Sequence record: MK373784.1
Source of the DNA: Escherichia phage vB_EcoM_MM02
DNA length: 64,000 bases
Reading direction: 5' to 3' (one strand)
The translations under genes were made by a program, and so were the position numbers. The notes below the pieces were generated by a model. The model was not told where the DNA came from and did no database searches. It saw only the letters and a list, made by a program, of their open reading frames with translations. Positions 4,786-41,511 of this stretch are shown in pieces (position 1 is the first letter of the stretch; each line of letters opens with the position of its first letter).

Positions 4786-6069
4786 ATGAGTAAAATCCAA
4801 AAATTATTGCGTGAATCTACAACGTCTACTAGCAACTCAATCGGTCGCCCAAATCTCGTTGCTTTGACTCGCGCTACGACTAAATTAATATATTCTGACA
4901 TTGTAGCAACACAAAGAACTAATCAACCTGTTGCTGCTTTTTATGGTATCAAATATCTTAACCCAGATAACGAATTCACATTTAAAACCGGTGCTACTTA
5001 TGCTGGCGAAGTTGGATATGTAGACCGAGAAAAAATTACTGAACTCACAGAAGAATCAAAAGTCACACTAAATAAAGGTGATTTTTTCAAATATAATAAT
5101 ATCGTCTATAAAGTGTTAGAAGATACACCATTTGCAGATATTCAAGAAAGTGATCTAGAATTAGCTCTTCAGATTGCAGTCGTTCATTTAAAGGTACGGT
5201 TATTTTCAGATGCAGCGGTAACAAGCAAATTTGAAAGCTCTGATAGCGAAATTTCTGATGCAAGATTCCAGATTAATAAATGGCAAACTTCAGTCAAATC
5301 TCGTAAACTTAAAACTGGCCTCACGGTTGAATTAGCGCAAGATTTGGAAGCGAATGGATTTGATGCCCCTAACTTCTTAGAAGATTTGCTTGCTACTGAA
5401 ATGGCTGATGAAATTAATAAAGATATTCTTCAGTCTTTAATTACTGTATCGAAACGTTATAAAGTTACTGGAATTACTGACACCGGATTTATTGACTTGA
5501 GCTATGCATCCGCTCCAGAAGCAGGTCGTTCATTATATCGAATGGTGTGTGAAATGGTATCACACATTCAAAAAGAGACAACTTATACTGCAACGTTTTG
5601 TGTAGCCTCAGCTCGTGCAGCTGCTATTCTTGCTGCTTCTGGTTGGTTAAAACATAAGCCAGAAGATGACAAGTATCTTTCACAAAATGCTTATGGATTC
5701 TTGGCAAATGGATTACCTCTTTACTGCGATACCAACAGTCCGTTAGATTATGTTATTGTGGGTGTTGTAGAAAATATCGGCGAAAAAGAAATTGTAGGGT
5801 CCATCTTTTATGCTCCATACACTGAAGGAGTAGATTTAGATGACCCGGAACATGTTGGTGCATTTAAAGTTGTAGTTGATCCAGAAAGCTTGCAACCGTC
5901 TATCGGATTATTGGTTAGATATGCTTTATCAGCAAATCCTTACACAGTAGCAAAAGACGAAAAAGAAGCGAGAATAATTGATGGTGGGGACATGGATAAA
6001 ATGGCAGGACGTTCAGACTTGTCTGTTTTACTCGGTGTTAAATTGCCTAAAATTATTATAGATGAATAA
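4786..6069 (+). CDS. 24: capsid vertex protein gp24
   Basis: 427 aa; late promoter TATAAATA at 4751-4758; synteny after 23. Confidence 0.9.
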   Translation: MSKIQKLLRESTTSTSNSIGRPNLVALTRATTKLIYSDIVATQRTNQPVAAFYGIKYLNPDNEFTFKTGATYAGEVGYVDREKITELTEESKVTLNKGDFFKYNNIVYKVLEDTPFADIQESDLELALQIAVVHLKVRLFSDAAVTSKFESSDSEISDARFQINKWQTSVKSRKLKTGLTVELAQDLEANGFDAPNFLEDLLATEMADEINKDILQSLITVSKRYKVTGITDTGFIDLSYASAPEAGRSLYRMVCEMVSHIQKETTYTATFCVASARAAAILAASGWLKHKPEDDKYLSQNAYGFLANGLPLYCDTNSPLDYVIVGVVENIGEKEIVGSIFYAPYTEGVDLDDPEHVGAFKVVVDPESLQPSIGLLVRYALSANPYTVAKDEKEARIIDGGDMDKMAGRSDLSVLLGVKLPKIIIDE

Positions 6070-6080
6070 ACAAAAAAAAA

Positions 6081-6096
6081 GGGACCTTACGGTCCC
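6081..6096. terminator. bidirectional terminator between gene 24 and rnlB
   Basis: A9 - gggacc ttac ggtccc - T5. Confidence 0.7.
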
Positions 6097-6103
6097 TTTT
6101 TCG

Positions 6104-7102
6104 TTATGATACTAATTCAATCCATGCAGGACGCAGAACATCTTGCACCATTCGGACTAATTCTTTCTTAACAAGATTCGGATTATCGGATGATGTTAAT
6201 ACAATACCTTCACGAGAAGTTTCTTCCAGAATATCTTGAACAGTCAATCCCATCACTTTGCCAAAATCTTTTGGCGTTACAGTCCCAATCTTAGAAATCA
6301 CATTATTAACACGGTTTAATGTAACATAACAAGCTAGGACATCAAGCAAGTTTTTGTCAATTTCGGTTAATGGAACCTGAGTTTTAATAGGCTTATCAGA
6401 CTTTTTCTTTTCACTGAATTTAGAGTTCTTACACTTAATAGCTACACGAGTACCGTTTGGCAGCCATTTAGGGAAACAAGGCTTCAGAACATAACCTTCT
6501 GCCGTATTATCGCCAATAACATTAGCATCAAATACGCAATTATTTGCTTCGACAAGGTCTTCCGATGCCGTGGCGTTATAAGCGGCTAAGACAGAATCAA
6601 GGTCGTTTGGAATCATGATAAGAGCATCAAATGTGCCACGACCAAGCATTGGTGCCATTTTAAAACCGAATTCATTACAGAAATCTTGCATTTCGTAATC
6701 GGTCAAATACGTATTATCACCACTTTCTGTATTGATAAGGATATCGAACACATAAAAATCTTTTTCACCGTAGTCAACACCTTTCTGGATTCCACCACCA
6801 GCGAATTCACCAAAGACCTGATATGATACAGCTCGAGAACTACCCATTACTTCTTGAACGTTTTTAATAGCTTTATCATACTTCTTGAGTACAATTTCAT
6901 AACCATAAAAATCTTCTGCTGGAAGAATAGGGCCTGTGCGCTTGGCGCATGTGACGTTGTCACGTTCAATTATTAACGAGAAGTTAGTCCCATGGATTTT
7001 CTCACGTGCTACCCAAACACCAGTAGTCAAACCATTAGTGTAGAGTTTTTCAATAAACTTAGAGTTGTAGTGGTTTTCAAGACTGCTGTATTTCTTAAAC
7101 AT
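6104..7102 (-). CDS. rnlB: RNA ligase 2 (Rnl2)
   Basis: 332 aa; nucleotidyltransferase motif KIHGTN near N-terminus; position after gene 24 as T4 24.1/rnlB. Confidence 0.85.
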
Positions 7103-7221
7103 AAATCACCATTATAAATAATAATATCAAAATAATTAGCAGAGACTCTGTCTCTGACCAGATGTTTAATTTGAATGGATAGAACCTAGATTCATTATAC
7201 CATCAAAAAATGTAAAGCATA

Positions 7222-7473
7222 TTAGAACTTGATTTCTATCCAATGACCATCACGCTGGTCGTGATTAATTTTGTACTGAAAGCCGTTATCACGAAGCCAT
7301 TGACCGACTTGTTCAGTTATAGTTAAATCGTTCTTTGACGGGTAGTATGTGAATTGTGTCTGGCCTTTGTCAGCGGCTTTCTCTGCCATCACAGAGAAGT
7401 TAGTAATAAAATCACTCAACAAATTAGCTTTAGTGGCCAGTGCCCTTTCTCTTAATTCCTGTGCAAAACTCAT
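7222..7473 (-). CDS. hypothetical protein, 83 aa
   Basis: ATG ORF in T4 24.2/24.3 position. Confidence 0.45.
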   Translation of the reverse strand: MSFAQELRERALATKANLLSDFITNFSVMAEKAADKGQTQFTYYPSKNDLTITEQVGQWLRDNGFQYKINHDQRDGHWIEIKF

Positions 7474-7664
7474 TTCTTCACCTTTTTGTTAATCAAACGT
7501 TTACGGTATACAACTTTTTCTTTTGCTTTAAACTTTGACCGAGCTGTCTCGGCTTTAGTCCATAGTAATCCAACTTCTTTAGGTTGTAAACCAATTTTTT
7601 GAGCAATTTCTACGAATGAAAATCCCGCCTCATGTAATGTATAAACTTCAACTTCAGCTCTCAT
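7470..7664 (-). CDS. small hypothetical protein with possible helix-turn-helix
   Basis: ORF track starts at TTG 7670; in-frame ATG at 7664; FSFVEIAQKIGLQPKEV segment is HTH-like; basic C-terminus. Confidence 0.4.
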   Translation of the reverse strand: MRAEVEVYTLHEAGFSFVEIAQKIGLQPKEVGLLWTKAETARSKFKAKEKVVYRKRLINKKVKK

Positions 7665-7745
7665 AATCAATCCCGTATTATTTGGTTTGTGCCATTATAT
7701 ACATCAATCTCAAGTTGTGTTTTGTATGCTTTAAAAACGAAGAAA

Positions 7746-7759
7746 GGGGCCGAAGCCCC
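7746..7759 (-). terminator. terminator after hoc
   Basis: ggggc-cgaa-gcccc; minus strand followed by U-rich run. Confidence 0.6.
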
Positions 7760-7765
7760 TTACGA

Positions 7766-8896
7766 TTATGGATATGTATAGATGATACCAGTTTCCAAAG
7801 CAGTTTTATGGATGATGTATCCATTACGTGATTCTTGAACATCAACTTCCGGATAGTCTTTCATCATCTTCTGAAGAGTGTAACGATGCAGGTAGTATTT
7901 ACTATCTGGATCTTCAGTTTTCCAATCTTTACCTTCTTCAGTCATTTTTTGGATTTCATCCATAACCCACCAACCGCACCAGATGTAAGCCGAAGTACGA
8001 TGTGGAAGAGGATGAACATAAGGTAGTTCACCTTCTGGTTCTGGAGCAACTTTATCAGTCACTTGGACTTGACCTTCTGCTGTAATAGTTTTGCTATCAT
8101 AATCAGTAGCAGTAACAGTTGCAGTAACTTCAATAGTTTGACTTCCAATAGATGAGGTATCAACGGTATATACATTAGTTGACCCTTCTACAGGAGAAGA
8201 ATCTTTCTTCCATGAATACGCAATTTGCGCTTCTTCTGGAGCATCCGTAACATTAGCCGTAAATGTAGCCGAAGCATCTTGCTGAACGTTAATAGAAGGA
8301 GGAGTCAATGTAACCTGTGGATTCATTGTCTTCTTATTAACCGTTAATGATACTTCATTCGAAGTAACTTCCTTTGCATCATAATCTGTCGCAGTTACTT
8401 GGGCTACACATTTAATTCTTTTTACTCCACTTGTAGTTGGAGTATAGCTAAATGTAGAGTTAGTTTCTCCACCAACCTGTGAATCATCTACATACCACTG
8501 ATACGTAGCAGACGCTCCAGCTGGTTGAGAAGCTAAGGCAGCAGTAAATTGAACTGGGGTTCCAATTACTCCAGCTGAAGGACTAGCAGGAGTTACGGCT
8601 AAGGTAGTCGTCTGTGTCTTATTTTGAACTGTGATAGTTGTAGTAGCTTCTGCTGTTTCAGCGTCAGTATCAGGAATAGTATTTGTTGCAACAACTTTAA
8701 TTGTTTTTGTTCCAGCAGGTCCTTTTAACACGTAATCAAAAGTTTCTGCTGATCCTTCTTGGGGAGCATCGTCTACACTCCATGCATAGGTAATAGTTCC
8801 ACCTCCAGTTTCACCACTGGGAGTAGCAGTAAACTGCTTAGTCTCATCTATAACTCCAGTAGATGTTTTAGGAGTTATATCAACTGTAAAAGCCAT
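7766..8896 (-). CDS. hoc: Hoc, highly immunogenic outer capsid protein
   Basis: 376 aa, repeated Ig-like beta-rich segments; position between 24.x and inh. Confidence 0.8.
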   Translation of the reverse strand: MAFTVDITPKTSTGVIDETKQFTATPSGETGGGTITYAWSVDDAPQEGSAETFDYVLKGPAGTKTIKVVATNTIPDTDAETAEATTTITVQNKTQTTTLAVTPASPSAGVIGTPVQFTAALASQPAGASATYQWYVDDSQVGGETNSTFSYTPTTSGVKRIKCVAQVTATDYDAKEVTSNEVSLTVNKKTMNPQVTLTPPSINVQQDASATFTANVTDAPEEAQIAYSWKKDSSPVEGSTNVYTVDTSSIGSQTIEVTATVTATDYDSKTITAEGQVQVTDKVAPEPEGELPYVHPLPHRTSAYIWCGWWVMDEIQKMTEEGKDWKTEDPDSKYYLHRYTLQKMMKDYPEVDVQESRNGYIIHKTALETGIIYTYP

Positions 8897-8905
8897 AAGT
8901 TATCC

Positions 8906-9574
8906 TTATTTTAATGTTACGAAAGAAGAATTACGAGTTTCACGAATTAGAACTGATCCATCGCGATTAATATAATAAATTAAGCTAAATAATGTTTGGT
9001 GAGCAGAAGCGTGAACAAAACTGGTTGGACGAGATTTCCAATCTGGGGTTTCGGCTATCCATTGATAAATCCACCAAGGAACAGTAACATATCCTGGGGC
9101 TTTGCCTAATTTAATGAGTGTAGGACTAAAATTTTCAGGCAGAACAAATTTTACTTCTTTATTTACCTCTGGATCAGGCTCTTTTTCAGATTCAACAACC
9201 TGAGTAATTGCTTCTTCGAATTTATCATGGTCGAATTCTTTTTCTTGTTCGACAACTTCTAATACTTCAACTTGTTCTGTTGGAGAATCAAACAACAGAA
9301 TAGCTTCTTCTTTAACTTCTTCGTTGGTGAAATTAACACCGTCCGCATCATCTGCGGCAGTAATTAAATCGGTGATAGATAATCCATCGGTTTCAGGTAA
9401 TGGTTCATCAGCCAGTGCGTTAAGAGCTTCTTCGATATCAATAACAATATTATCGAATGATTTTGTTTTCTTAACACTAATGCCAAATTGTTCCGCATAT
9501 TCAAACAGTTTAGCTTTGGCTTCCTTTTTATCAGAAAGAGCACGTAACTCTTCAATATAGTCTTTATCGATCAT
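8906..9574 (-). CDS. inh: Inh-like protein (inhibitor of prohead protease)
   Basis: 222 aa, acidic; synteny between hoc and uvsW. Confidence 0.6.
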   Translation of the reverse strand: MIDKDYIEELRALSDKKEAKAKLFEYAEQFGISVKKTKSFDNIVIDIEEALNALADEPLPETDGLSITDLITAADDADGVNFTNEEVKEEAILLFDSPTEQVEVLEVVEQEKEFDHDKFEEAITQVVESEKEPDPEVNKEVKFVLPENFSPTLIKLGKAPGYVTVPWWIYQWIAETPDWKSRPTSFVHASAHQTLFSLIYYINRDGSVLIRETRNSSFVTLK

Positions 9575-9587
9575 GATATTTCCTCAT

Positions 9588-9595
9588 TATAAATA
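9588..9595 (+). promoter_or_regulatory. T4-type late promoter TATAAATA (uvsW)
   Basis: Exact TATAAATA ~30 bp upstream of ATG 9625. Confidence 0.6.
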
Positions 9596-9624
9596 TAACT
9601 ATATTTATTACATGGTAATTTGAC

Positions 9625-11139
9625 ATGACTGACATTAAAGTACATTTTTATGATTTTAGTCACGTGCGCATTGAATGCGACGAAAGTACGTTTTACGAAC
9701 TTCGTGACTTTTTTAGCTTTGAAGCCGATGGGTACAAATTCAACCCTCGTTACAAATATGGGCAATGGGATGGTAGAATTCGACTTTTAGATTACAACCG
9801 TTTGTTACCATATGGACTTGTAGGACAAATAAAAAAGTTCTGTAACAATATGAGTTATTCTGTATGGATTGACCCTAAAATCTTTGAGACTGAAGACCTT
9901 ACCAGGGAAGATTTTGACGCATGGCTTTCTAAACAAGAAATTTATTCAGGCAACGCCAAAATCGAACCACATTGGTATCAAAAAGATGCAGTATATGAAG
10001 GACTAGTTAATCGTCGTCGAATTTTAAACCTTCCGACATCAGCAGGTAAATCACTAATCCAAGCACTTTTAGCTCGGTATTATCTAGAGAACTATGAAGG
10101 TAAAATTCTCATTATCGTCCCTACAACAGCATTGACAACCCAGATGGCTAATGATTTTGTTGATTATCGCTTGTTTAGTCATTCGATGATTAAGAAAATT
10201 GGCGGTGGTGCCGATAAAGCGGACAGAGCTAAAAACGACGCTCCAATTATTGTTGGCACATGGCAAACGGTAGTTAAGCAGCCTAAAGAATGGTTCTCTC
10301 AGTTCGGTATGATGATGAACGATGAATGCCACTTAGCAACAGGCAAAAGTATTTCTTCAATCATCTCAGGATTAAATAATTGCATGTTCAAATTTGGTTT
10401 ATCTGGCTCATTAAGAGACGGAAAAGCCAATGTAATGCAGTACGTAGGTATGTTCGGCGAAATCTTCCGTCCTGTTAGCACGTCTAAATTAATGGAAGAT
10501 GGACAGGTAACTGAGCTTAAGATTAATAGTATTTTCCTTCGTTATCCAGACGAATTCGCCACCAAATTAAAAGGTAAAACATACCAAGAAGAAGTTAAAA
10601 TTATTACTGGACTAAAACGACGTACAAAGTGGATTGCTCAACTTTCAGTCAAATTGGCTAAGAAAGACGAGAACGCCTTTGTAATGTTTAAACACGTTAC
10701 ACACGGTAAAGAAATATTTGAAGCTATTAAAGAGCTTGGATACGAAAAAGTTTATTACGTATCAGGTGAAGTTGATACTGAAACACGTAACGCGCTTAAA
10801 GTCATGGCAGAAAATGGTAAAGGCATTATTATTGTCGCATCATATGGAGTATTCTCTACTGGTATTTCAGTCAAGAATCTTCATCATGTTATTTTTGCCC
10901 ATGGTGTTAAATCAAAAATTATCGTACTTCAAACCGTAGGTCGTGTGCTTCGCAAGCATGGTTCTAAATCTGTTGCTACAGTTTGGGATCTCATCGACGA
11001 TGCAGGTGTAAAACCTAAATCATTAAATACTAAAAAGAAGTATACTCATCTTAATTACTTGTTAAAACACGGTATTGATCGTATCCAACGTTACGCTGAT
11101 GAGAAATTTAACTATGTAATGAAAACAATTAATTTATAA
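9625..11139 (+). CDS. uvsW: UvsW DNA/RNA helicase
   Basis: 504 aa; SF2 helicase motifs (LPTSAGKS Walker A, DECH box); late promoter TATAAATA at 9588-9595. Confidence 0.9.
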   Translation: MTDIKVHFYDFSHVRIECDESTFYELRDFFSFEADGYKFNPRYKYGQWDGRIRLLDYNRLLPYGLVGQIKKFCNNMSYSVWIDPKIFETEDLTREDFDAWLSKQEIYSGNAKIEPHWYQKDAVYEGLVNRRRILNLPTSAGKSLIQALLARYYLENYEGKILIIVPTTALTTQMANDFVDYRLFSHSMIKKIGGGADKADRAKNDAPIIVGTWQTVVKQPKEWFSQFGMMMNDECHLATGKSISSIISGLNNCMFKFGLSGSLRDGKANVMQYVGMFGEIFRPVSTSKLMEDGQVTELKINSIFLRYPDEFATKLKGKTYQEEVKIITGLKRRTKWIAQLSVKLAKKDENAFVMFKHVTHGKEIFEAIKELGYEKVYYVSGEVDTETRNALKVMAENGKGIIIVASYGVFSTGISVKNLHHVIFAHGVKSKIIVLQTVGRVLRKHGSKSVATVWDLIDDAGVKPKSLNTKKKYTHLNYLLKHGIDRIQRYADEKFNYVMKTINL

Positions 11140-14197: not shown

Positions 14198-15366
14198 AAG
14201 TATTCCAACGTCCAGGATATCCTAACTTAAGCGTTAAATTATACCAAGATTATTCGGCTTGGCAAGAAAATAGATACGTTGAACTCGCGGCAACAATAAC
14301 AACTTTAACCATGCGAGATTCGTTATATGGAAGAAATGAAGGGATTCTTCAATTTTATGACACTAAAAACATCCACACTAAAATGGATGGTAGACAGATA
14401 GTCCAAATCTCTGTTTCAAATTCAAACACACCTCTCCAAGTTAGAACTCGAATTTACGGATGCAGACATTATTCTGTGTCTGTGGACTCAAAAGGTGACA
14501 ATATTATTGCAATTGAGCTTGGAACAATACATTCTATAGAGAACCTTAAATTTGGGCGTCCATTCTTCCCGGATGCAGGCGAATCTATACGTGAAATGTT
14601 AGGTGTCATATACAAAGACCGTGCGTTAATTACTCCGCCAATAAACACTATTAATGCTTATGTTCCTGATATCCCTTGGACAAGCACATTTGATGATTAT
14701 TTGGCATATGTCAGAGAATTAGGACTTGCTACAGCGAGTGATAAGTTCGTATTCGTATGGCAAGATATTTTAGGCGTAAACATGATTGACTACGATACTC
14801 TTATTGGTCAGGAAGGCATTAAGATGATTGTAGGTGAGCCAAATACTGTAGGTCAGTATATTCAAGAGCTTGAGTATCCATTAGTATGGGATTTTACCTG
14901 GATGACTAAAGCCAACCAATTTACAAGAGACCCTATTAAAAACGCCACAATATTCGCCCATTCATTTTTAGATACATCTATTCCGGTTATTGTTACAGGT
15001 GATGGTGATAATGCTATTCTTGTGTCAAGATCCGGCGGATATTCCGAAATGACCTATCGTAATGGATTTGAAGAAGCAAGTCGTCTTCAGACAATGGCTC
15101 AATATGACGGATATACTAAATGCACTACTACAGGCAATTTTAACATAACGCCTGCTACTAAAATTATATTTGTTGACCAAAAGAACCAATTCAAATCCGA
15201 ATTTTACGTAGATGAAGTTATTCATGAGTTATCAAATAACAACTCACAAACTCATCTGTACATGTTTACCAACTCAATGGTGTTAGAACCTGTTAACCCA
15301 GTTAAGGTTAAAAATGAACTTAAATCTGATTCTACCTCTAAAGAAAATAATTCTACCACAATCTAA
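14194..15366 (+). CDS. 27: baseplate hub protein gp27
   Basis: 390 aa; ATGA overlap with gene 51. Confidence 0.85.
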
Positions 15367-15847
15367 TAAAAAGGTAATGATTCCCAAATTAGGGCTCAAA
15401 CATTATAATCTTTTAAAGGACGTTAAAGGCCCTGATGAAAACATGAAAATCTTAGCTGATTCTATTTGTAAAAATATGAGTCCCGCAGATTTTGATTTTG
15501 CATGTCTACACATATTGGAATTTAATAACAAACTTAAGTCTGAAGTTGAAAAAGACGGATTCACTTATAAACTAGATGACGTCTATGTATGCCAACGAAC
15601 AGAATTCCAATTCCAAGGTAATACTTTTTATTTTAGACCCCCAGGCAAATTTGAACAATTCGCTACAATCAGTGAAATGCTATCAAATTGCTTAATAAAA
15701 GTTAATGACGAAGAGAAAGAAATTTCTTTCCTTGAGATGCCTGCTTTTGTAATCAAATGGGCAGAAGACCTTTCGACAACTATTGCTATTCCAGGCCCTA
15801 ATGGTCCTATTAAGGGTGTAGCAGAAATTATTGGATTGCTTGAATGA
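15314..15847 (+). CDS. 28: baseplate hub distal subunit gp28
   Basis: 177 aa; overlaps 3' end of gene 27. Confidence 0.8.
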
Positions 15848-17671
15848 AACCTGAAGAAATGAAATCCATGCGTAGAAATAAGGTCATTGCCGATAATAAA
15901 CCACAAAAAGTAGCTGCAACAGCAGCTACCGATTCATTAGAAGCATTGAATGACATTTCATCAAAACTAGACGATGTCCAAGCCGCGTCTGAACTCACAT
16001 CACAAAGTGTAGAAGATAAAGGCAATGGAATCATTGAATCAATTGGAGACTTAAAGAATTCGACAGATAATACAAGGCAATGGAATCATTGAATCAATTG
16101 GAGACTTAAAGAATTCGACAGATAATACTGCTGAAGGCACAGAGCTTATCGCAGAAGTTATTGAAAAACAAACTGAAGTCACTAAAAGTATAAACGAAGT
16201 TTCTAGTGCAATAAGCTCTAAGTTAGACCGATTAGCTACATTATTAGAGCAAAAATTACAAACATCTACCGCTATTCAAAATACAGGAGGCACCTCTCTT
16301 GAAGTAATTGAGAACGCAATACCTGTTAAAGTGGTTGAGAATGAAACTTCTGATGAGTTGTTTAAAGCATTCCCTACACCTGAAAAGATTGATAATAAGC
16401 CAGACGAAGATTTCTTCCCAGCACCGGTTCAAGAAAGTGCTAATTCTACTTCCGATTCTAAAGGCGGAATTAGCTTTAAATTGAGCGATAAAATTGCAAT
16501 GCTCACCAAAACAGTTCAAACCGGGTTTAATAAATCAATATCAATTTCAGACAGAATTGCTGGAATGCTTTTCAAATACACTATAACGGCTGCTATTGAA
16601 GCAGCAAAAATGGCCGCACTTATTCTTGGTATTGTTATCGGTATTGATTTATTGATAGTCCATTTCAAATATTGGACAGACAAGTTCACTTCTGCCTGGG
16701 ATTTATTTGATGAAAACTTTACTAAATTCTCTGACGAAGCTAAAGAGTGGGGTAAATTCTTAAGTGATATATTCACTTCTATTGACTCTATAAAACAATT
16801 GTGGGAAGCTGGAGACTGGGGTGGTTTAACCGTTGCTATTGTCAAAGGTGTAGGAACAGCATTAATGAATTTAGGTGAACTAATTCAATTAGGAATGGCT
16901 AAACTCTCCGCGTCTATATTGCGTGCTATAGGTTTTGGTGATACCGCTGACGAAATAGAAGGACGTGCTTTGGAAGGATTCCAAGAAACTACTGGGAACA
17001 AATTAAAGAAAGAAGACCAAGAGAAAGTCGCTAAATATCAAATGAAGCGTGACGATGGGGAATTAGGAACCGTTTCTAAAGGCCTTGATATGTTACAACG
17101 TGGCAAAACATTCGTTACTAACTGGGTTCGTGGTAATGACAATAAAGAAGAGTTTAGTACAAGCGATGAGCGTGCTGCGGAATCAGCAAAATTAAAAGAG
17201 TTACCTGAAGAGGAGCGTAAAGAGGCGTATATAAAAGCTAATGAAACTCGTGCGGCACTGGTTAGATTTGAGGATTATATCGATAAAATCGATATGACTA
17301 ATCCAGAAAATGCTAAAAACGTCGAGAAGTCTTATGCTGATTTAAGTAAACTTATTAAAGACCCTGAACTTAATAAAACTCCTGTTGTTAAAAAGGAATT
17401 AGATGCTAGATTTGAAAAGCTAAATAATAAAATGGCTGAAGCCAAAAAGGCTCAGACCACAGTTAAGCCTGAATCTTCGTCTAAATCTCCGGAAGCAAAA
17501 CAAGTTCAGTCAATAGAGAAAGGACGTGCTTCTGAATCTAAACAACAGCAACCGGTAGCGGCGATTAGTAACACAAATAATGTCGTCAAAAAGAATACCG
17601 TAGTCCAGAATATGACCCCTGTAACAAGTACAACGGCTCCTGGAATTTTCCATGCCACCGGTGTTAATTAA
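15844..17671 (+). pseudogene. 29: gene 29 (baseplate hub / tail-length determinator) interrupted by +1 frameshift from a 55-bp tandem duplication
   Basis: Frame-1 ORF 15844-16092 ends at TGA (..DNTRQWNH*); frame 2 open from copy 2 to 17671; removing one copy gives a single 591-codon ORF. Confidence 0.85.
16019..16128 (+). repeat. perfect direct tandem duplication, 2 x 55 bp (16019-16073 and 16074-16128)
   Basis: Both copies read aaggcaatggaatcattgaatcaattggagacttaaagaattcgacagataatac. Confidence 0.95.
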
Positions 17672-29092: not shown

Positions 29093-29674
29093 TTATTCAC
29101 CACAAAAGTTTCGGATTTGTTCCCAATTCAGAGAACGAAGATTATTACGAGAGTACTGAATTACTTCAATACCGGCTTGTTTTAGAATGTCTGCCCAATT
29201 TTCAGGAGATCTGTCATATAATTCTGCGTATACAACCTTTTTAATACCTGACTGTGTAATAGCTTTAGTGCAATCAGGACACGGAGAAAGCGTAGTATAT
29301 AACGTAGCACCTTCAATAGAATTACCTTTACGAGCTGCAAACAAAATTGCATTCAGTTCCGCATGGATTTCGTTATTAGCAGACCATGCACTATGAGCGG
29401 CCCGATGTTCTTTAGCCAAAACAAAATTATCTGCCCGTCCAAATGCTGTAGTGCCTTCTTTATGCCCAGCAACGATGACCGGGCTTGGTTTATTCTTCAA
29501 CCAACCGTTTTCGGATGCATGTTCGCAACAGTTTGTACCACCTGAAGGAGAGCCATTATAACCTGTAGAAATAATGCGTCCATCTTTTTCAATGACGGCG
29601 CCAACTTTCCATGAACAACATTTTGATTCTTGAGAAATCAGATATGCAATCTGAAGGTATGTGCTAGCTTTCAT
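29093..29674 (-). CDS. cd: dCMP deaminase
   Basis: 193 aa; zinc-binding HAELNAI and SPCPDC motifs; N-terminus matches T4 Cd pattern. Confidence 0.9.
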   Translation of the reverse strand: MKASTYLQIAYLISQESKCCSWKVGAVIEKDGRIISTGYNGSPSGGTNCCEHASENGWLKNKPSPVIVAGHKEGTTAFGRADNFVLAKEHRAAHSAWSANNEIHAELNAILFAARKGNSIEGATLYTTLSPCPDCTKAITQSGIKKVVYAELYDRSPENWADILKQAGIEVIQYSRNNLRSLNWEQIRNFCGE

Positions 29675-30666
29675 TATTGAACCTTATTAATATAAGTTAA
29701 CAGCTCTTTAGTTTGTTCCCAACTGATGCACGCATCGGTAACGGAAACGCCATAGGACATATTATCAGAAATTTTTTGATTTCCTTCATGTAGGAATGAT
29801 TCTATCATAATTCCTTTGACCAAATCATTAGCTGCTAAATTTTTACCAATACCAATTTGATTGCTATAATGTCCATCAGCGTTTGCATGGCTACAGTCAA
29901 CCATTACATAATGATTCAGACCTACTGCACTTGCTTTGTTAGAAGCTTCTTGAATATCAGAAGAATGATAGTTCGGGCCGTTGGTCCCGCCACGCAATAC
30001 GATATGCGTATTCTGATTACCTTCAGCTTCAACAATGCCTACAGTACCATCGACGTCCATACCCATATACCGATGAGGCCAGGCGGCACTATACATCGCG
30101 TCTGTAGCTACTTTAATAGAACCATTGGTTGCGTTCTTGAAGCCTACGCACATCGGTAGACCTGAAGCAATTTCACGATGTGTCTGACTTTCAGTCGTAC
30201 GGGCGCCAATAGCAACCCATGAGAAAATACCAGAAAGATACTTAATCGTGAATGGGTCTAATACTTCAGTTGCTAATGGAAGTCCCATACGTAGAAGTTT
30301 ACGACACAATGTTCGTGCAACTATAAGACCGTGGTTCATATCAAAACTTCCGTCAAGATATGGATCATTTACAAGACCTTTCCAACCTACGGTAGTTCGA
30401 GGCTTTTCAAAATAAACGCGCATCACTAACAGAACATTAGGAAGACGAGTTTGAAGTTCAGCCAGACGTTTGCCGTATTCAACAGCAGCAATAGGGTCAT
30501 GAATTGAACAAGGACCTACAACAATAAGTTTGCGTGGGTCTTCACCATTCATAATCGAATTAACTTGTTCGCGATGAGAAGCCACTTGTGATGCGTAAGC
30601 TTCCGACAAAGGAATAATCTCGGCCAGTTCTTTTGGAGAAATAAGTTTTCCGACGACAGGTAACAT
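29674..30666 (-). CDS. 3-deoxy-D-arabino-heptulosonate 7-phosphate (DAHP) synthase, class I (AroG/F/H-like)
   Basis: 330 aa; VVGPCSIHDP, RVYFEKPRTTVGWKGL, GARTTESQTHRE, VMIESFLHEGNQ align along E. coli AroG; stop overlaps cd ATG. Confidence 0.85.
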   Translation of the reverse strand: MLPVVGKLISPKELAEIIPLSEAYASQVASHREQVNSIMNGEDPRKLIVVGPCSIHDPIAAVEYGKRLAELQTRLPNVLLVMRVYFEKPRTTVGWKGLVNDPYLDGSFDMNHGLIVARTLCRKLLRMGLPLATEVLDPFTIKYLSGIFSWVAIGARTTESQTHREIASGLPMCVGFKNATNGSIKVATDAMYSAAWPHRYMGMDVDGTVGIVEAEGNQNTHIVLRGGTNGPNYHSSDIQEASNKASAVGLNHYVMVDCSHANADGHYSNQIGIGKNLAANDLVKGIMIESFLHEGNQKISDNMSYGVSVTDACISWEQTKELLTYINKVQ

Positions 30667-30674
30667 AACAATCC

Positions 30675-30863
30675 TTAGGAGATATAAACAGATTCTGATT
30701 CAACAATACCTTTAACCGGATTAGACAGGCTAAGTTGGTAGTGCTCAGATTTATGACCATTCTCGATAGTAATGAGATAGCTCTCATTATAGTGTTCCAT
30801 ATACTCGAGTTGCTTCAACAAGACCATCACTGCATAATTTAAGATTAGTAATTTGGTCACCAT
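30675..30863 (-). CDS. possible small ORF (start uncertain)
   Basis: Overlaps 30787-31023 ORF by ~77 bp; internal ATGs at 30827/30800 lack good SD. Confidence 0.2.
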   Translation of the reverse strand: MVTKLLILNYAVMVLLKQLEYMEHYNESYLITIENGHKSEHYQLSLSNPVKGIVESESVYIS

Positions 30864-31023
30864 CTTTAGGATTAACGATTATGAGAAAAGAACGTGGAGA
30901 TTCTTGAATAACTCGTAATGTTGCATCTTGGAAACGTTCAGACACTTTATTGATGAGTGCTTGAGCAAATTCTTTTACTTTAATCTGAAATTCGTGTACT
31001 GTAATTGGGTTTTCACTTAGCAT
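30787..31023 (-). CDS. hypothetical protein, 78 aa
   Basis: ATG ORF with early promoter upstream (~31052-31081). Confidence 0.45.
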   Translation of the reverse strand: MLSENPITVHEFQIKVKEFAQALINKVSERFQDATLRVIQESPRSFLIIVNPKDGDQITNLKLCSDGLVEATRVYGTL

Positions 31024-31043: not shown

Positions 31044-31081
31044 GTAGAGTTATAGTATCACAACTCTACCATGTTGTAAAC
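31044..31081 (-). promoter_or_regulatory. early promoter with 8-bp inverted repeat
   Basis: GTTTAC -35; arms GTAGAGTT / AACTCTAC around the -10 region. Confidence 0.45.
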
Positions 31082-40066: not shown

Positions 40067-40927
40067 TTATACCGCCATTTTAGCTTTGATAGCTGGATGA
40101 GATTCGTAATTTTTAAGAACGAAATCAGAATGTGTCATCGTTCCAGTAACCCAGTCCATTTGGATTTTTGTAGGCCAATTCTCAAAATTACTAGGCCAAT
40201 TAATTTCAAGAGAACATAACTCTTTAGGTTCACGACGAAGAACTTCTTTGCATTGTTCTACATGATTGCTGTAGATATGCGTGTTGCCGCCTGAGAACAC
40301 TAAATCACCTGGGATAAGGTTACACATCTTCGCTACAATATGCGTCAAGGCAGCGTACGAGGCAATGTTGAATGGCAGGCCCAAGAAAACATCTACACTG
40401 CGTTGATACCATTGTAAATCAAGATGCCCATTACGCACATTAAATTGATAGAACATATGACAAGGAGGAAGAGCCATTTGGTCAATTTCGGCAGGGTTCC
40501 ATGCAGAAACTATTTGACGACGATCATTAGGAAGAGCTTTAATACGGTCGATAGTTTTGACCAATTGGTCTACACCACCAAAATCACGCCATTGCTTACC
40601 ATAAATAGGACCAAGTTCGCCGCTATGATATCCAAGGTCTTTTGCCTGATTTTCATAGTTGTCGTCCCAAATAGTTTTACCTTGAATAAGACTACCATGA
40701 GTACGAATACGCAAATCATTAACATTGGTAGAACCAGACATGAACCACAGTAACTCGGCAATACAAGCTTTCCATGCTAATTTCTTAGTTGTTACTGCAG
40801 GGAATCCTTTAGTCAGATCCCAACGTAATTTAGTTCCGAACAGGGCAATAGTGCCGGTGCCTGTACGGTCGTCTGTTTCGTAGCCATTTTCTAGGATATC
40901 ATTAATCAGGTATTGGTATTGTTTCAT
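40067..40927 (-). CDS. td: thymidylate synthase, uninterrupted
   Basis: 286 aa, same length as T4 Td; ThyA-type segments (LPPCHMFYQF, MALPPCH). Confidence 0.95.
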   Translation of the reverse strand: MKQYQYLINDILENGYETDDRTGTGTIALFGTKLRWDLTKGFPAVTTKKLAWKACIAELLWFMSGSTNVNDLRIRTHGSLIQGKTIWDDNYENQAKDLGYHSGELGPIYGKQWRDFGGVDQLVKTIDRIKALPNDRRQIVSAWNPAEIDQMALPPCHMFYQFNVRNGHLDLQWYQRSVDVFLGLPFNIASYAALTHIVAKMCNLIPGDLVFSGGNTHIYSNHVEQCKEVLRREPKELCSLEINWPSNFENWPTKIQMDWVTGTMTHSDFVLKNYESHPAIKAKMAV

Positions 40928-41511
40928 TTATAAACGCTCTCAGTAATTTCGGTGAGTTCATCGATTCTGTAGTAATGAGATTCTACCATAGAACGTTGAA
41001 GCATAATATCTTGGACGAAATCTTTATCAAGTTGAACATCGGAATTAACACGACATTTCTTAATGATTTTAGTCATCACGATTTCATCGGCATAAGGCAG
41101 TGCTTGTTTAAGTAGAGCAGGACCGCCGATAACAGATACATTAACATGTTCAGTAGAAAGTTTAAACGGTACATCAGTTGCAGGGCTAAACAGGTTAATT
41201 TCACCACCTGTTACCAAGGTAATAAATTCAGATTGGGTGATATAGAACCGTGCAAGTTCATCAGTTTTAGTCCTAGGCAGTTTTCTGGCCATATCAGTGA
41301 CAACCACATGAGTACGATCTGGGAGTAGACGAGGTAATGATGCAAAAGTCTTAGCACCCATAACCATTACAGTGTTTTTAGTGCGAGCAACAAAGTTACT
41401 CATATCTTGTTTGATATGCTTCCATGGAAGTCCATCACCTAATCCAAAAGCATATTCCAGTTTATCATCAACTGTTTTAGATGGTGCGCATGCGAATACT
41501 AATTTAAGCAT
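40924..41511 (-). CDS. frd: dihydrofolate reductase
   Basis: 195 aa; DHFR-like GLGDGLPW; ATGA overlap with td. Confidence 0.9.
   Translation of the reverse strand: MLKLVFACAPSKTVDDKLEYAFGLGDGLPWKHIKQDMSNFVARTKNTVMVMGAKTFASLPRLLPDRTHVVVTDMARKLPRTKTDELARFYITQSEFITLVTGGEINLFSPATDVPFKLSTEHVNVSVIGGPALLKQALPYADEIVMTKIIKKCRVNSDVQLDKDFVQDIMLQRSMVESHYYRIDELTEITESVYK

What the first reader, a model, noticed from the sequence alone, without database searches (positions are those of the whole stretch)
29674..30666. Full-length class-I DAHP synthase (AroG-like) translationally coupled to dCMP deaminase
The 330-aa ORF aligns along its length with E. coli AroG as I remember it, including the RVYFEKPRTTVGWKGL signature that separates DAHP synthases from KdsA. 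It is intact, has its own SD, and its stop overlaps the cd ATG. I do not recall this gene in T4, where small cd.x ORFs occupy the site. Hypothesis: boosts or de-regulates shikimate/chorismate flux during infection, possibly feeding pABA/folate for the adjacent td and frd. A role in a sugar-precursor route for DNA hypermodification cannot be excluded.
Basis: partly seen in the sequence, partly recalled or inferred. Interest (0 to 1): 0.75.

Follow-up and report, generated by a model that had tools for sequence, protein, structure and literature searches.

The report
Phage DAHP synthase lacking feedback site
A T4-like coliphage carries an intact copy of the enzyme that opens the aromatic (shikimate) pathway; the gene is already annotated in many phage genomes, but its amino-acid "off switch" looks eroded, and it occurs only in phages whose DNA-modification module contains an enzyme family that uses the pathway product prephenate.

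Summary
Window 29674-30666 (-) encodes a 330-aa type I-alpha DAHP synthase. It has its own Shine-Dalgarno sequence, and its stop overlaps the dCMP deaminase start (TAATG).

The gene is not new. The window is a Mosigvirus, an identical protein is deposited (phage moskry), about 139 phage records carry it, and PHROG 5045 names it.

- **Closest relative:** it is nearer AroF (51%) than AroG (47%). It belongs to a phage-only clade (bootstrap 100/100).
- **Catalysis:** all metal, PEP and E4P residues are conserved, and the AF2 model matches DAH7PS structures at TM 0.96.
- **Feedback site:** the inhibitor site is eroded clade-wide. About 11 N-terminal residues are missing, AroG P150/Q151 are I/K, and S180 is P. 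I predict feedback-insensitivity; this is not tested.
- **Origin:** RB69 lacks the gene. Here it is a 1094-bp cassette with a recombination scar.
- **Context:** td and frd lie 9.4 kb away and are not adjacent.
- **New lead:** the gene occurs only in T4-like genera whose arabinosyl-5-hydroxycytosine module encodes a U32-family protein. In most of these genera, though not Mosigvirus, a chorismate mutase sits next to it. Cellular U32 enzymes are prephenate-dependent, O2-independent hydroxylases. DAHPS may therefore supply prephenate for anaerobic cytosine hydroxylation. This is inferred only.

The parts
29674..30666 (-). DAHP synthase CDS (330 aa), type I-alpha, phage-only short clade
   Evidence: ORF. 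Pfam, NCBIfam and PHROG 5045 matches. PDB AroF E 6e-105. Catalytic residues C53, H260, E289, D311, R83, K88-T91, R156, K177 and R225 are conserved. AF2 pLDDT 93.4, TM 0.96 to DAH7PS structures.
30672..30676 (-). Shine-Dalgarno AAGGA, 5 nt upstream of the ATG
   Evidence: Read directly from the sequence.
29672..29676 (-). TAATG stop/start overlap of DAHPS and cd
   Evidence: Read directly from the sequence. The same junction type joins cd.2 and cd in RB69.
29093..29674 (-). dCMP deaminase (cd), 193 aa, the downstream gene
   Evidence: PF00383 E 1.6e-26. Annotated as cd in homologous records.
31052..31080 (-). T4 early-type promoter (GTTTACA ... TG-n-TACTAT) upstream of cd.2. It probably drives cd.2, DAHPS and cd.
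   Evidence: Consensus scan and sequence. The same site is annotated as an early promoter in phage SA79RD. Function is not shown.
30787..31023 (-). cd.2 homologue (DUF7320, 78 aa), resident gene upstream of the cassette
   Evidence: PF24005 E 7e-35. 97% DNA identity to RB69 up to window position 30772.
29678..30771 (-). 1094-bp cassette, absent from RB69, that carries the DAHPS gene
   Evidence: blastn against RB69. The flanks are 96-97% identical, and the 19-bp RB69 junction matches on both sides of the cassette. An empty site is seen in about 11 Mosigvirus-level records and an occupied site in about 139.
30678..30782 (-). Remnant 3' end of a foreign cd.2 gene at the cassette's upstream edge. 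It is the C-terminal half of the 62-aa ORF 30675-30863.
   Evidence: DUF7320 positions 43-76, E 2e-6. The peptide SYLITIENGHK...SVYIS resembles the cd.2 C-termini of Kanagawavirus and Marfavirus rather than the resident cd.2.
30778..30787 (-). Duplicated, slightly diverged cd start (ATGAGAGCTA) at the left junction of the cassette
   Evidence: Compared with ATGAAAGCTA at 29674-29665 and with the RB69 junction.
40067..41511 (-). td (thymidylate synthase) and frd (DHFR). Context only; they lie 9.4 kb upstream.
   Evidence: PF00303 E 2.5e-97 and PF00186 E 3e-21.

Best explanation
The gene encodes a catalytically competent type I-alpha DAHP synthase (PEP + erythrose-4-P -> DAHP). It belongs to a clade found only in T4-like phages.

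It is probably transcribed early, from the promoter upstream of cd.2, together with cd. This is inferred.

Compared with cellular AroF/G/H, the clade has lost the elements that bind the feedback inhibitor:
- About 11 N-terminal residues are missing.
- The Pro-Gln pair (AroG P150/Q151) is Ile-Lys.
- The inhibitor-binding Ser (AroG S180) is Pro.

The enzyme should therefore keep feeding the host's shikimate pathway even when Phe, Tyr and Trp are plentiful and the host isoenzymes are shut down. This is inferred, not assayed.

The most likely use of the extra chorismate is prephenate. Every phage genus that carries this DAHPS also carries a U32-family protein inside its arabosyl-5-hydroxycytosine DNA-modification module. 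In most genera an AroQ chorismate mutase lies directly after it with an overlapping stop/start, though not in Mosigvirus. Cellular U32 enzymes (UbiU/V, TrhP, RlhA) carry out O2-independent hydroxylations that consume prephenate as the oxygen donor.

The proposal is that DAHPS, with or without a phage chorismate mutase, is the supply line for a prephenate-dependent reaction of the phage U32 protein. That reaction would most plausibly be anaerobic C5-hydroxylation of cytosine nucleotides. It would back up the O2-requiring flavin 5-hydroxy-dCMP synthase.

My confidence in each step is: enzyme identity about 0.95, feedback insensitivity about 0.65, prephenate/U32 purpose about 0.35.
For: **Identity and catalysis.**

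**Inhibitor site.**
- The changes are listed. They are shared by all 24 phage-clade representatives and by none of the six cellular or other non-clade sequences displayed in the same alignment.
- AroG P150L and S180F are feedback-resistant. Q151/Q152 and S180/S181 bind the inhibitor's main chain (PMC9529685).

**Phage-only clade.**
- Monophyletic in 100/100 bootstraps.
- Divergent members also sit on T4-like contigs, between pseT and cd in one of the two cases examined.

**Long residence.** The gene lies in the pseT-cd interval in Mosigvirus, Kanagawavirus, Marfavirus, Winklervirus and Bragavirus.

**Early promoter.**

**U32 protein.**
- PF01136 E 7e-11 and 3e-11, both above the cutoff.
- 221 phage records carry it, all at 80% identity or more. 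The organism counts enclose those of the DAHPS clade.
- The window's near-identical relatives carry both genes.

**Chorismate mutase.**
- CM_2 is above Pfam's cutoff in four genera and lies between U32 and the ThyA-homologue with overlapping stops and starts.
- 51 records carry it.
- It aligns with the E. coli TyrA chorismate mutase domain.

**U32 chemistry.** Prephenate is the oxygen donor for O2-independent hydroxylation by the U32 family (PMC10990095).

**O2 dependence of the known route.** The phage 5-hydroxy-dCMP synthase uses flavin and O2. RB69 gp50 (the U32 protein) has no assigned role (PMC13326640).

**Host ecology.**
- Table 1 of PMC13326640 lists no U32 counterpart for the Acinetobacter or Rhizobium glyco-5hoC phages, and no such phage appears among the listed U32 rows. 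Those hosts are aerobes, from my own knowledge.
- The Mosigvirus phiC120 carries the anaerobic ribonucleotide reductase.

**Demand.** There are about 64,000 cytosines per genome.
Against: - No enzyme assay, knockout or metabolite measurement exists for any part of this.
- The inhibitor pocket is altered rather than deleted. AroF P148, L180 and V221, and the beta-hairpin, are retained. Residual or re-targeted regulation is therefore possible.
- RB69 makes arabinosyl-5hoC without DAHPS (PMC13326640).
- Tegunavirus has U32 and chorismate mutase but no DAHPS between pseT and cd, and the organism counts point the same way genome-wide.
- Mosigvirus, the window's genus, has no detectable chorismate mutase.
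- DAHPS lies about 108 kb from the modification module.
- All carriers are related Straboviridae, so the co-occurrence may simply reflect shared ancestry.
- The phage U32 protein is very divergent from TrhP, and its substrate is unknown.
- The six downstream shikimate enzymes must come from a host whose transcription is shut off.
- He et al. 2026 and Mahler et al. 2025 could not be read and may already address these genes.
Confidence: 0.4

Rival explanations
1. Amino-acid supply. The phage enzyme simply sustains Phe, Tyr and Trp synthesis for the burst of phage protein production after host gene expression stops. It has no connection to DNA modification.
For: - This is the default reading for the first enzyme of the pathway, and the one offered for phage KLB31 (PMC11845039).
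- The enzyme is intact and probably expressed early.
- The gene lies far from the modification module.
Against: - When aromatic amino acids are scarce, the host isoenzymes are not inhibited, so a feedback-blind copy adds little. When they are plentiful, it is unnecessary.
- This reading does not explain why the gene is confined to U32-bearing genera and absent from T4 and other T4-like phages with the same protein demand.
- It does not explain why those phages also carry a chorismate mutase inside a DNA-modification operon.
Confidence: 0.25
2. Still regulated. The enzyme keeps an allosteric site that binds Tyr weakly or a new ligand such as prephenate, chorismate or a nucleotide. On this reading it is re-tuned rather than deregulated.
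For: - The beta6a/6b hairpin and several pocket residues persist: P138, L170, V212, and G202 as in AroF.
- The replacement residues I141, K142 and P171 are themselves invariant across genera, which suggests selection on the pocket rather than decay.
Against: - The three positions that changed are exactly those whose mutation abolishes inhibition or that bind the inhibitor backbone (PMC9529685).
- The N-terminal arm that closes the site from the partner subunit is absent. The role of that arm is from my own knowledge of the AroG-Phe structure.
Confidence: 0.25
3. Folate supply. Extra chorismate feeds pABA and folate for td and frd.
For: td and frd are encoded on the same strand of the window. 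Chorismate is the pABA precursor (established pathway knowledge).
Against: - td and frd are 9.4 kb away and are universal in T4-like phages, whereas DAHPS is not.
- T4, which needs folate for both hmC and dTMP, lacks the gene. The carriers replaced the folate-dependent step with a flavin enzyme (PMC13326640).
- Folate is recycled, not consumed.
- No pab or fol gene was seen in the regions examined.
Confidence: 0.08
4. Carbon re-routing. The enzyme acts as a sink for erythrose-4-P and PEP, pulling the non-oxidative pentose-phosphate pathway toward pentoses needed for nucleotides and for arabinosylation.
For: The carriers need extra pentose, one to three arabinoses per cytosine, taken from ribulose-5-P (PMC13326640).
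Against: E4P is normally recycled into pentoses, so draining it lowers the pentose yield (established pathway stoichiometry). This reading does not explain the chorismate mutase or the U32 protein.
Confidence: 0.04
5. Passenger gene. It is a horizontally acquired cassette with no selected function in this phage.
For: - It is a discrete 1094-bp cassette with a recombination scar, and some Mosigvirus genomes lack it.
- Within-genus dN/dS values are noisy, from 0 to 1.2.
Against: - The ORF is intact in all 212 matching records.
- Catalytic residues are invariant across at least six genera at 58-77% identity.
- It occupies a syntenic position in five genera.
- More than 90% of Mosigvirus records keep it.
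Confidence: 0.04

Closest known systems
E. coli AroF (Tyr-sensitive type I-alpha DAHP synthase; PDB 6AGM/6AGL)
   Same: Best sequence match, E 6e-105 and 51% identity. It has the same TIM-barrel with the extra beta-hairpin. The metal ligands and the PEP/E4P residues, including KPRT, are identical. The NJ point estimate places the phage clade next to enterobacterial AroF.
   Different: The phage protein is 26 residues shorter. It lacks about 11 N-terminal residues, and AroF P151, Q152 and S181 are I, K and P. It also has 7- and 3-residue deletions near the C-terminus. The sister relationship has only 27/100 bootstrap support. The 'Tyr-sensitive' label used in several GenBank records is therefore unsupported.
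Engineered feedback-resistant AroG/AroF (P150L, S180F, Q151 variants)
   Same: The phage enzyme naturally carries substitutions at the same positions: P150->I, Q151->K, S180->P. These are the positions where laboratory mutations abolish Phe or Tyr inhibition (PMC9529685).
   Different: The substitutions are natural, combined, and fixed across a whole clade, together with an N-terminal truncation. Their effect has not been measured.
PhzC / PaeDAH7PS-PA1901 (type IIB DAH7PS of the phenazine cluster)
   Same: It is a naturally feedback-insensitive DAHP synthase that lacks allosteric elements. It keeps chorismate flowing for a dedicated non-amino-acid pathway when aromatic amino acids are high (PMC6435475). 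This is the logic proposed here.
   Different: It belongs to an unrelated sequence class (type II, under 10% identity to type I). It is cellular and is encoded inside the cluster it serves. The phage gene is type I-alpha and lies about 108 kb from the module it may serve.
PHROG 5045 and the annotated phage 'phospho-2-dehydro-3-deoxyheptonate aldolase' genes (for example moskry, JS09, APCEc01, phiC120 ORF64, KLB31)
   Same: These are the same gene. Identity is 100% to moskry, 605 bits to PHROG 5045, and about 139 records are at 95% or more. It is mentioned as a domain or AMG in PMC8022965 and PMC11845039.
   Different: The sequences do not differ. Those sources give only a name or a generic amino-acid hypothesis. 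In the searchable library none describes the eroded inhibitor site, the cassette scar, or the association with U32 and chorismate mutase.
Dual O2-dependent / prephenate-dependent hydroxylation systems (UbiI/H/F vs UbiU/V; TrhO vs TrhP)
   Same: The proposed phage arrangement would pair a flavin/O2 5-hydroxy-dCMP synthase with a U32 protein next to a chorismate mutase. This mirrors the cellular pairs (PMC10990095 and PMC6599085).
   Different: No activity has been shown for the phage U32 protein. It is too divergent from TrhP for tblastn to detect. Its cysteine pattern differs from TrhP's, with 13 Cys including a C-terminal CX4CX3CX2C cluster.

Membership tests
Type I-alpha DAHP synthase (aroF/G/H family; PF00793, TIGR00034) | Profile score above the curated cutoffs over the full length | tested here: met
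   - PF00793: 251.9 bits against a cutoff of 25.5.
- TIGR00034: 427.2 bits against 173.2.
- NF009395: 454.7 bits against 343.
- Coverage is residues 6-327.
Type I-alpha DAHP synthase | Metal ligands Cys-His-Glu-Asp (AroG C61, H268, E302, D326) | tested here: met
   C53, H260, E289 and D311 are present and invariant in a 52-sequence alignment.
Type I-alpha DAHP synthase | PEP/E4P-binding residues, including the KPRT motif that separates DAHPS from KDO8P synthase | tested here: met
   R83, K88-P89-R90-T91, G154-A155-R156, K177 and R225 are all conserved. The only other NCBIfam hit is a weak match to the Bacillus-type DAHPS model, and there is no KdsA hit.
Type I-alpha DAHP synthase | (beta/alpha)8 barrel with the beta6a/6b hairpin | tested here: met
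   AF2 pLDDT 93.4. Foldseek TM 0.94-0.96 and rmsd 1.4-1.7 Å to N. meningitidis and E. coli DAH7PS. Strands are predicted at 198-203 and 209-214.
Type I-alpha DAHP synthase | Catalyses PEP + E4P -> DAHP | not testable with these tools
   This needs an enzyme assay or complementation of an aroF aroG aroH strain.
Feedback-regulated isoenzymes AroG (Phe), AroF (Tyr), AroH (Trp) | Isoenzyme-specific profile above the cutoff | tested here: not met
   The AroG model NF006723 scores 363 against a cutoff of 568. The AroH model NF009396 scores 385 against 463. No AroF-specific model was returned.
Feedback-regulated isoenzymes AroG/AroF/AroH | Inhibitor site: N-terminal arm, Pro-Gln (AroG 150-151), Ser180 | tested here: not met
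   About 11 N-terminal residues are absent. P150 is I141, Q151 is K142, and S180 is P171. These changes hold across the clade. The functional consequence is inferred from the mutant literature.
KDO8P synthase (KdsA) | KdsA profile match, or KANRS in place of KPRT | tested here: not met
   There is no KdsA hit in NCBIfam or the PDB. The KPRT motif is present.
Phage auxiliary metabolic gene family PHROG 5045 | Full-length match to the PHROG profile, in a phage genome | tested here: met
   605 bits, covering residues 1-330 against profile positions 8-337 of 341. The window is 99% identical to Mosigvirus genomes.

The most novel reading that the evidence does not exclude
The DAHP synthase would be one arm of a virus-encoded supply line: a feedback-blind DAHPS plus, in most genera, an AroQ chorismate mutase. 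This line would deliver prephenate to a phage U32-family Fe-S enzyme (RB69 gp50 and its homologues). That enzyme would hydroxylate cytosine nucleotides without O2. Gut and sediment phages of facultative anaerobes could then make arabinosyl-5-hydroxycytosine DNA under anoxia, where their flavin/O2 5-hydroxy-dCMP synthase cannot work. This would be a third, and the first viral, example of paired O2-dependent and prephenate-dependent hydroxylation. It would also be the first case of stoichiometric prephenate consumption for DNA synthesis, at about 64,000 hydroxylations per genome.
Probability: 0.3. Interest if true: 0.85.

Novelty: new variant of a known kind. Interest (0 to 1): 0.5.

Why it matters
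The gene itself is ordinary and already catalogued. Three things could matter.

- **A natural feedback-resistant enzyme.** If the prediction holds, this is a compact type I-alpha DAHP synthase that combines several known feedback-resistance positions. That is of practical interest for aromatic-compound bioproduction.
- **A direct experiment on an open question.** RB69 gp50 (the U32 protein) has no assigned role, and it is not known how enteric phages build 5-hydroxycytosine DNA without oxygen. The genetic association of DAHPS, chorismate mutase and U32 points to an anaerobic versus aerobic comparison of deletion phages, plus 18O-shikimate labelling.
- **A different kind of auxiliary metabolic gene.** It would show a phage re-wiring a host biosynthetic pathway to obtain a co-substrate for DNA chemistry rather than building blocks.

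Tried and rejected
1. **TrhP-like gene.** tblastn with E. coli TrhP found no T4-like phage record and nothing in the window. The phage U32 gene was found only through the phiC120 paper and a Pfam scan.
2. **Mosigvirus gp158 (RB69 gp49) as a divergent chorismate mutase.** Rejected. It has no Pfam or NCBIfam hit, BLASTP E is 6.9, and hhalign probability is 0.1%. An HMM of the phage chorismate mutases finds nothing in the window.
3. **Within-Mosigvirus dN/dS.** There are only 4-12 substitutions per pair. The comparison set was also biased toward the most divergent proteins, so the result is uninformative.
4. **Origin from host AroF.** The NJ tree places the clade next to enterobacterial AroF, but with only 27/100 support. 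The sampled set is also biased, being the top 120 hits. The origin is unresolved.
5. **Arabinose precursor role.** Rejected. The published route starts from ribulose-5-P through a phage isomerase, and RB69 arabinosylates its DNA without DAHPS.
6. **E4P-sink idea.** Rejected on stoichiometry.
7. **Literature on experimental work on phage DAHPS.** Five searches returned only two passing mentions. A search for an open-access source on the role of the N-terminal arm found none, so that point rests on my own knowledge.
8. **He et al. 2026 (Nat Chem Biol) and Mahler et al. 2025 (Cell Host Microbe).** Neither is held. I cannot exclude that they already discuss U32, chorismate mutase or DAHPS.
9. **Record-level cross-tabulation of DAHPS, U32 and chorismate mutase.** Not possible, because at most 60 rows are listed per search. 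Co-occurrence rests on organism counts and on representatives I inspected.
Full report
**1. Observation**

The minus-strand ORF 29674..30666 (330 aa) exists as described.
- Its ATG is the first start codon after the upstream in-frame stop, so the N-terminus cannot be longer.
- An AAGGA Shine-Dalgarno sequence lies 5 nt upstream.
- Its TAA shares one base with the ATG of a 193-aa dCMP deaminase.

The family assignment is unambiguous:

| Test | Result |
|---|---|
| Pfam DAHP_synth_1 | E 6.8e-75 |
| NCBIfam TIGR00034 aroFGH | 427 bits (cutoff 173) |
| NCBIfam NF009395 | 455 bits (cutoff 343) |
| Best solved structure | E. coli AroF 6AGM, E 6e-105 |

There is no KDO8P synthase signal. The AroG- and AroH-specific models fall below their cutoffs. 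Identity to E. coli AroF, AroG and AroH is 51, 47 and 44%, so 'AroG-like' should read 'AroF-like at most'.

**2. Where the window comes from, and whether the gene is known**

The region is 99-99.5% identical to many Mosigvirus genomes (Straboviridae, Tevenvirinae). The protein is 100% identical to that of phage moskry.
- tblastn finds the gene in 212 phage records, 139 of them at 95% identity or more.
- Records name it variously: phospho-2-dehydro-3-deoxyheptonate aldolase, DAHP synthetase, aroF, AroG, or hypothetical.
- It matches PHROG 5045 at 605 bits.
- Two papers mention it in passing. For phiC120 it is listed as a domain (PMC8022965). For KLB31 it is treated as an amino-acid AMG (PMC11845039).
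- Five full-text searches found no experimental work.

The existence and name of the gene are therefore already known.

**3. Catalytic machinery**

The following are all conserved and invariant in a 52-sequence alignment:
- the AroG metal ligands C61, H268, E302 and D326;
- the PEP/E4P residues R92, K97-P98-R99-T100, G163-A164-R165, K186 and R234.

An AlphaFold2 model (pLDDT 93.4, pTM 0.92) superposes on N. meningitidis and E. coli DAH7PS structures at TM 0.94-0.96.

**4. The inhibitor site is eroded**

Relative to AroF/G/H, the phage protein differs in these ways:
- It lacks about 11 N-terminal residues.
- AroG P150 and Q151 are I141 and K142.
- AroG S180 is P171.
- It has 7- and 3-residue deletions near the C-terminus.

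All 24 representatives of the phage clade share the truncation, the PFTI(K/R)YL motif (PYTPKYL in the most divergent member) and the GLPM motif. All six cellular or other non-clade sequences shown in the same alignment keep the N-terminal arm, PQ and GLS.

The literature supports the functional reading (PMC9529685):
- AroG P150L is completely feedback-resistant, and S180F is also feedback-resistant.
- Q151/Q152 and S180/S181 bind the inhibitor's main chain.

That the N-terminal arm of the partner subunit closes the site is from my own knowledge of the AroG-Phe structure. I found no open-access source for it.

Some pocket residues and the beta-hairpin are retained. I rate feedback-insensitivity at about 0.65. 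The 'Tyr-sensitive' label in several records is unsupported.

**5. Evolution**

*A phage-only clade.* The short proteins form a clade with 100/100 NJ bootstrap support. Its placement beside enterobacterial AroF has only 27/100 support. Divergent metagenomic members also sit on T4-like contigs. One of them again shows the order pseT, a small ORF, DAHPS, then cd, with a 4-nt overlap between DAHPS and cd.

*Synteny.* In Kanagawavirus, Marfavirus, Winklervirus and Bragavirus the gene lies in the same pseT-cd interval.

*Presence and absence.* RB69 lacks it, and there cd.2 overlaps cd directly. Yersinia phage TG1 also lacks it in that interval.

*The cassette.* Against RB69 the window shows a 1094-bp cassette (29678-30771).
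- The flanks are 96-97% identical, and the 19-bp junction matches on both sides.
- The cassette opens with the 3' end of a foreign cd.2, with the peptide SYLITIENGHK...SVYIS. This resembles Kanagawavirus and Marfavirus cd.2 rather than the resident copy.
- That fragment is joined after a duplicated cd start, ATGAGAGCTA.

This points to acquisition from a phage that already had the order cd.2, DAHPS, cd. The TAATG overlap with cd is inherited gene packing, not a functional clue.

*Frequency.* About 11 Mosigvirus-level records have the empty site and about 139 have the cassette.

*Selection.* Within-genus dN/dS is uninformative. Conservation of an intact ORF and of all catalytic residues across genera argues for purifying selection.

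**6. Expression**

A T4 early-type promoter (GTTTACA ... TACTAT, 31080-31052) lies upstream of cd.2. The same site is annotated as an early promoter in phage SA79RD. Early co-transcription of cd.2, DAHPS and cd is inferred, not shown.

**7. Purpose: the new lead**

*Background from the literature.* RB69-type phages replace cytosine with arabinosylated 5-hydroxycytosine. A ThyA-homologue makes 5-hydroxy-dCMP using flavin and O2. RB69 gp50 is left without a clear role (PMC13326640).

*The U32 protein.* The phiC120 paper mentions a peptidase_U32 domain next to sugar genes. I confirmed the following:
- gp159 (equivalent to RB69 gp50) carries PF01136, E 7e-11, above the cutoff. The Entb_45 homologue scores E 3e-11.
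- 221 phage records carry it, all at 80% identity or more.

*The chorismate mutase.* Immediately downstream, with overlapping stop and start, and immediately upstream of the ThyA-homologue, lies an AroQ chorismate mutase. This holds in Kanagawavirus, Marfavirus, Winklervirus and Bragavirus.
- CM_2 scores 39.5-44.6 bits against a cutoff of 27.
- 51 records carry it.
- It aligns with the TyrA chorismate mutase domain.

*What U32 enzymes do.* UbiU/V, TrhP and RlhA perform O2-independent hydroxylations. RlhA makes 5-hydroxycytidine in rRNA. Prephenate is the oxygen donor (PMC10990095; PMC6599085 and PMC5727448).

*Distribution.*

| Group | U32 | Chorismate mutase | DAHPS |
|---|---|---|---|
| Kanagawavirus, Marfavirus, Winklervirus, Bragavirus, EcS1 | yes | yes | yes |
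| Mosigvirus | yes | no | yes, in about 93% |
| Tegunavirus | yes | yes | none found |
| T4-type phages | no | no | no |
| Acinetobacter and Rhizobium glyco-5hoC phages | none listed | not tested | not tested |

The T4-type row is inferred from organism counts and listed rows, not from a direct look at T4. Organism counts for DAHPS are enclosed by those for U32. The hosts in the last row are aerobes (my own knowledge). The Mosigvirus phiC120 encodes the anaerobic ribonucleotide reductase.

*The proposal.* A feedback-blind DAHPS, with or without a phage chorismate mutase, supplies prephenate for the phage U32 enzyme. The most plausible reaction is anaerobic cytosine hydroxylation. With about 64,000 cytosines per genome the demand would be stoichiometric and large. 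That would explain why feedback control had to go. The natural precedent for an unregulated DAHPS serving a dedicated pathway is PhzC (PMC6435475).

**8. Caveats**

- Nothing has been assayed.
- All carriers are related, so the co-occurrence may reflect ancestry.
- RB69 lacks DAHPS, and Mosigvirus lacks chorismate mutase.
- DAHPS lies about 108 kb from the modification module.
- The phage U32 protein is too divergent for TrhP tblastn to detect, and its substrate is unknown.
- In the searchable library no paper combines the U32/prephenate terms with the phage 5hoC terms. However, He et al. 2026 and Mahler et al. 2025 could not be read.

**9. Verdict**

The gene is already annotated. The folate idea is weak and 'adjacent td/frd' is loose. 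As far as I could check, three points are new:
- the clade-wide erosion of the inhibitor site;
- the cassette scar;
- the association with a U32 and chorismate mutase pair in the DNA-modification module.

Together these give a testable mechanism. The overall chain has confidence 0.4.

Noticed in passing
window 29678-30771, with junctions at 30772-30790 and 29659-29677: Relative to the RB69 empty site, the DAHPS gene sits in a 1094-bp cassette. The 19-bp cd.2/cd junction matches on both sides. The upstream copy keeps a degenerate cd start (ATGAGAGCTA), which opens a probably spurious 75-aa ORF (30560-30787).
   Followed up: yes
window 30675-30863 (62-aa ORF; informative part 30678-30782): The C-terminal half of this small ORF is the 3' remnant of a second, foreign cd.2 (DUF7320 positions 43-76). 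It is closer to Kanagawavirus and Marfavirus cd.2 than to the resident cd.2. It marks the donor lineage of the cassette.
   Followed up: yes
L016 (phiC120) 15062-16222; L017 (Entb_45) 4989-6161; L018-L020: A Peptidase_U32 protein (equivalent to RB69 gp50) lies inside the arabinosyl-5-hydroxycytosine module. It is 82-89% identical across genera, much better conserved than the DAHPS. It has 13 cysteines, including a C-terminal CX4CX3CX2C cluster. Its function is unassigned in the literature I could read.
   Followed up: partly
L017 6158-6397; L020 3658-3903; L019 3658-4002; L018 4030-4404: An AroQ-type chorismate mutase (CM_2 above the Pfam cutoff) lies between the U32 gene and the 5-hydroxy-dCMP synthase homologue in four genera, with overlapping stops and starts. 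51 phage records carry it. Its best NCBIfam match is the M. tuberculosis-type small chorismate mutase (TIGR01808). From my own knowledge, that type is activated in cells by binding a DAHP synthase.
   Followed up: partly
L016 14826-15065 (phiC120 gp158, equivalent to RB69 gp49): In Mosigvirus the slot that holds chorismate mutase in other genera is filled by an unrelated 79-aa protein with no detectable family. Mosigvirus therefore has DAHPS and U32 but no phage chorismate mutase.
   Followed up: yes
L024 (Yersinia phage TG1) 8336-10809: Tegunavirus has U32 and chorismate mutase but only small ORFs between pseT and cd, with no DAHPS. DAHPS and chorismate mutase are therefore each dispensable in some lineage, while U32 is constant.
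   Followed up: partly
L005 (RB69) 8743-9252 versus window 29093-29674: RB69 cd is annotated as 169 aa, against 193 aa here, although the DNA is collinear at 96%. This is either a real C-terminal truncation or one of the RB69 sequencing errors that other authors report for ORFs 46/47 and 52/53.
   Followed up: no
Public records L011, L012, L013, L006 and the hits: Annotation is inconsistent. cd is labelled riboflavin biosynthesis RibD, tRNA-specific adenosine deaminase, or ComEB. The DAHPS is labelled Tyr-sensitive, AroG, putative aldolase, or hypothetical. Phage JK45 is filed under Tequatrovirus, although this region is 99% Mosigvirus.
   Followed up: no
L021 (metagenomic contig, Logan SRR28261677) 6992-9760: A divergent T4-like contig (DAHPS 57% identical, 343 aa) repeats the order pseT, small ORF, DAHPS, cd, with a 4-nt DAHPS/cd overlap. 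On this contig frd and td lie only about 4 kb upstream.
   Followed up: partly
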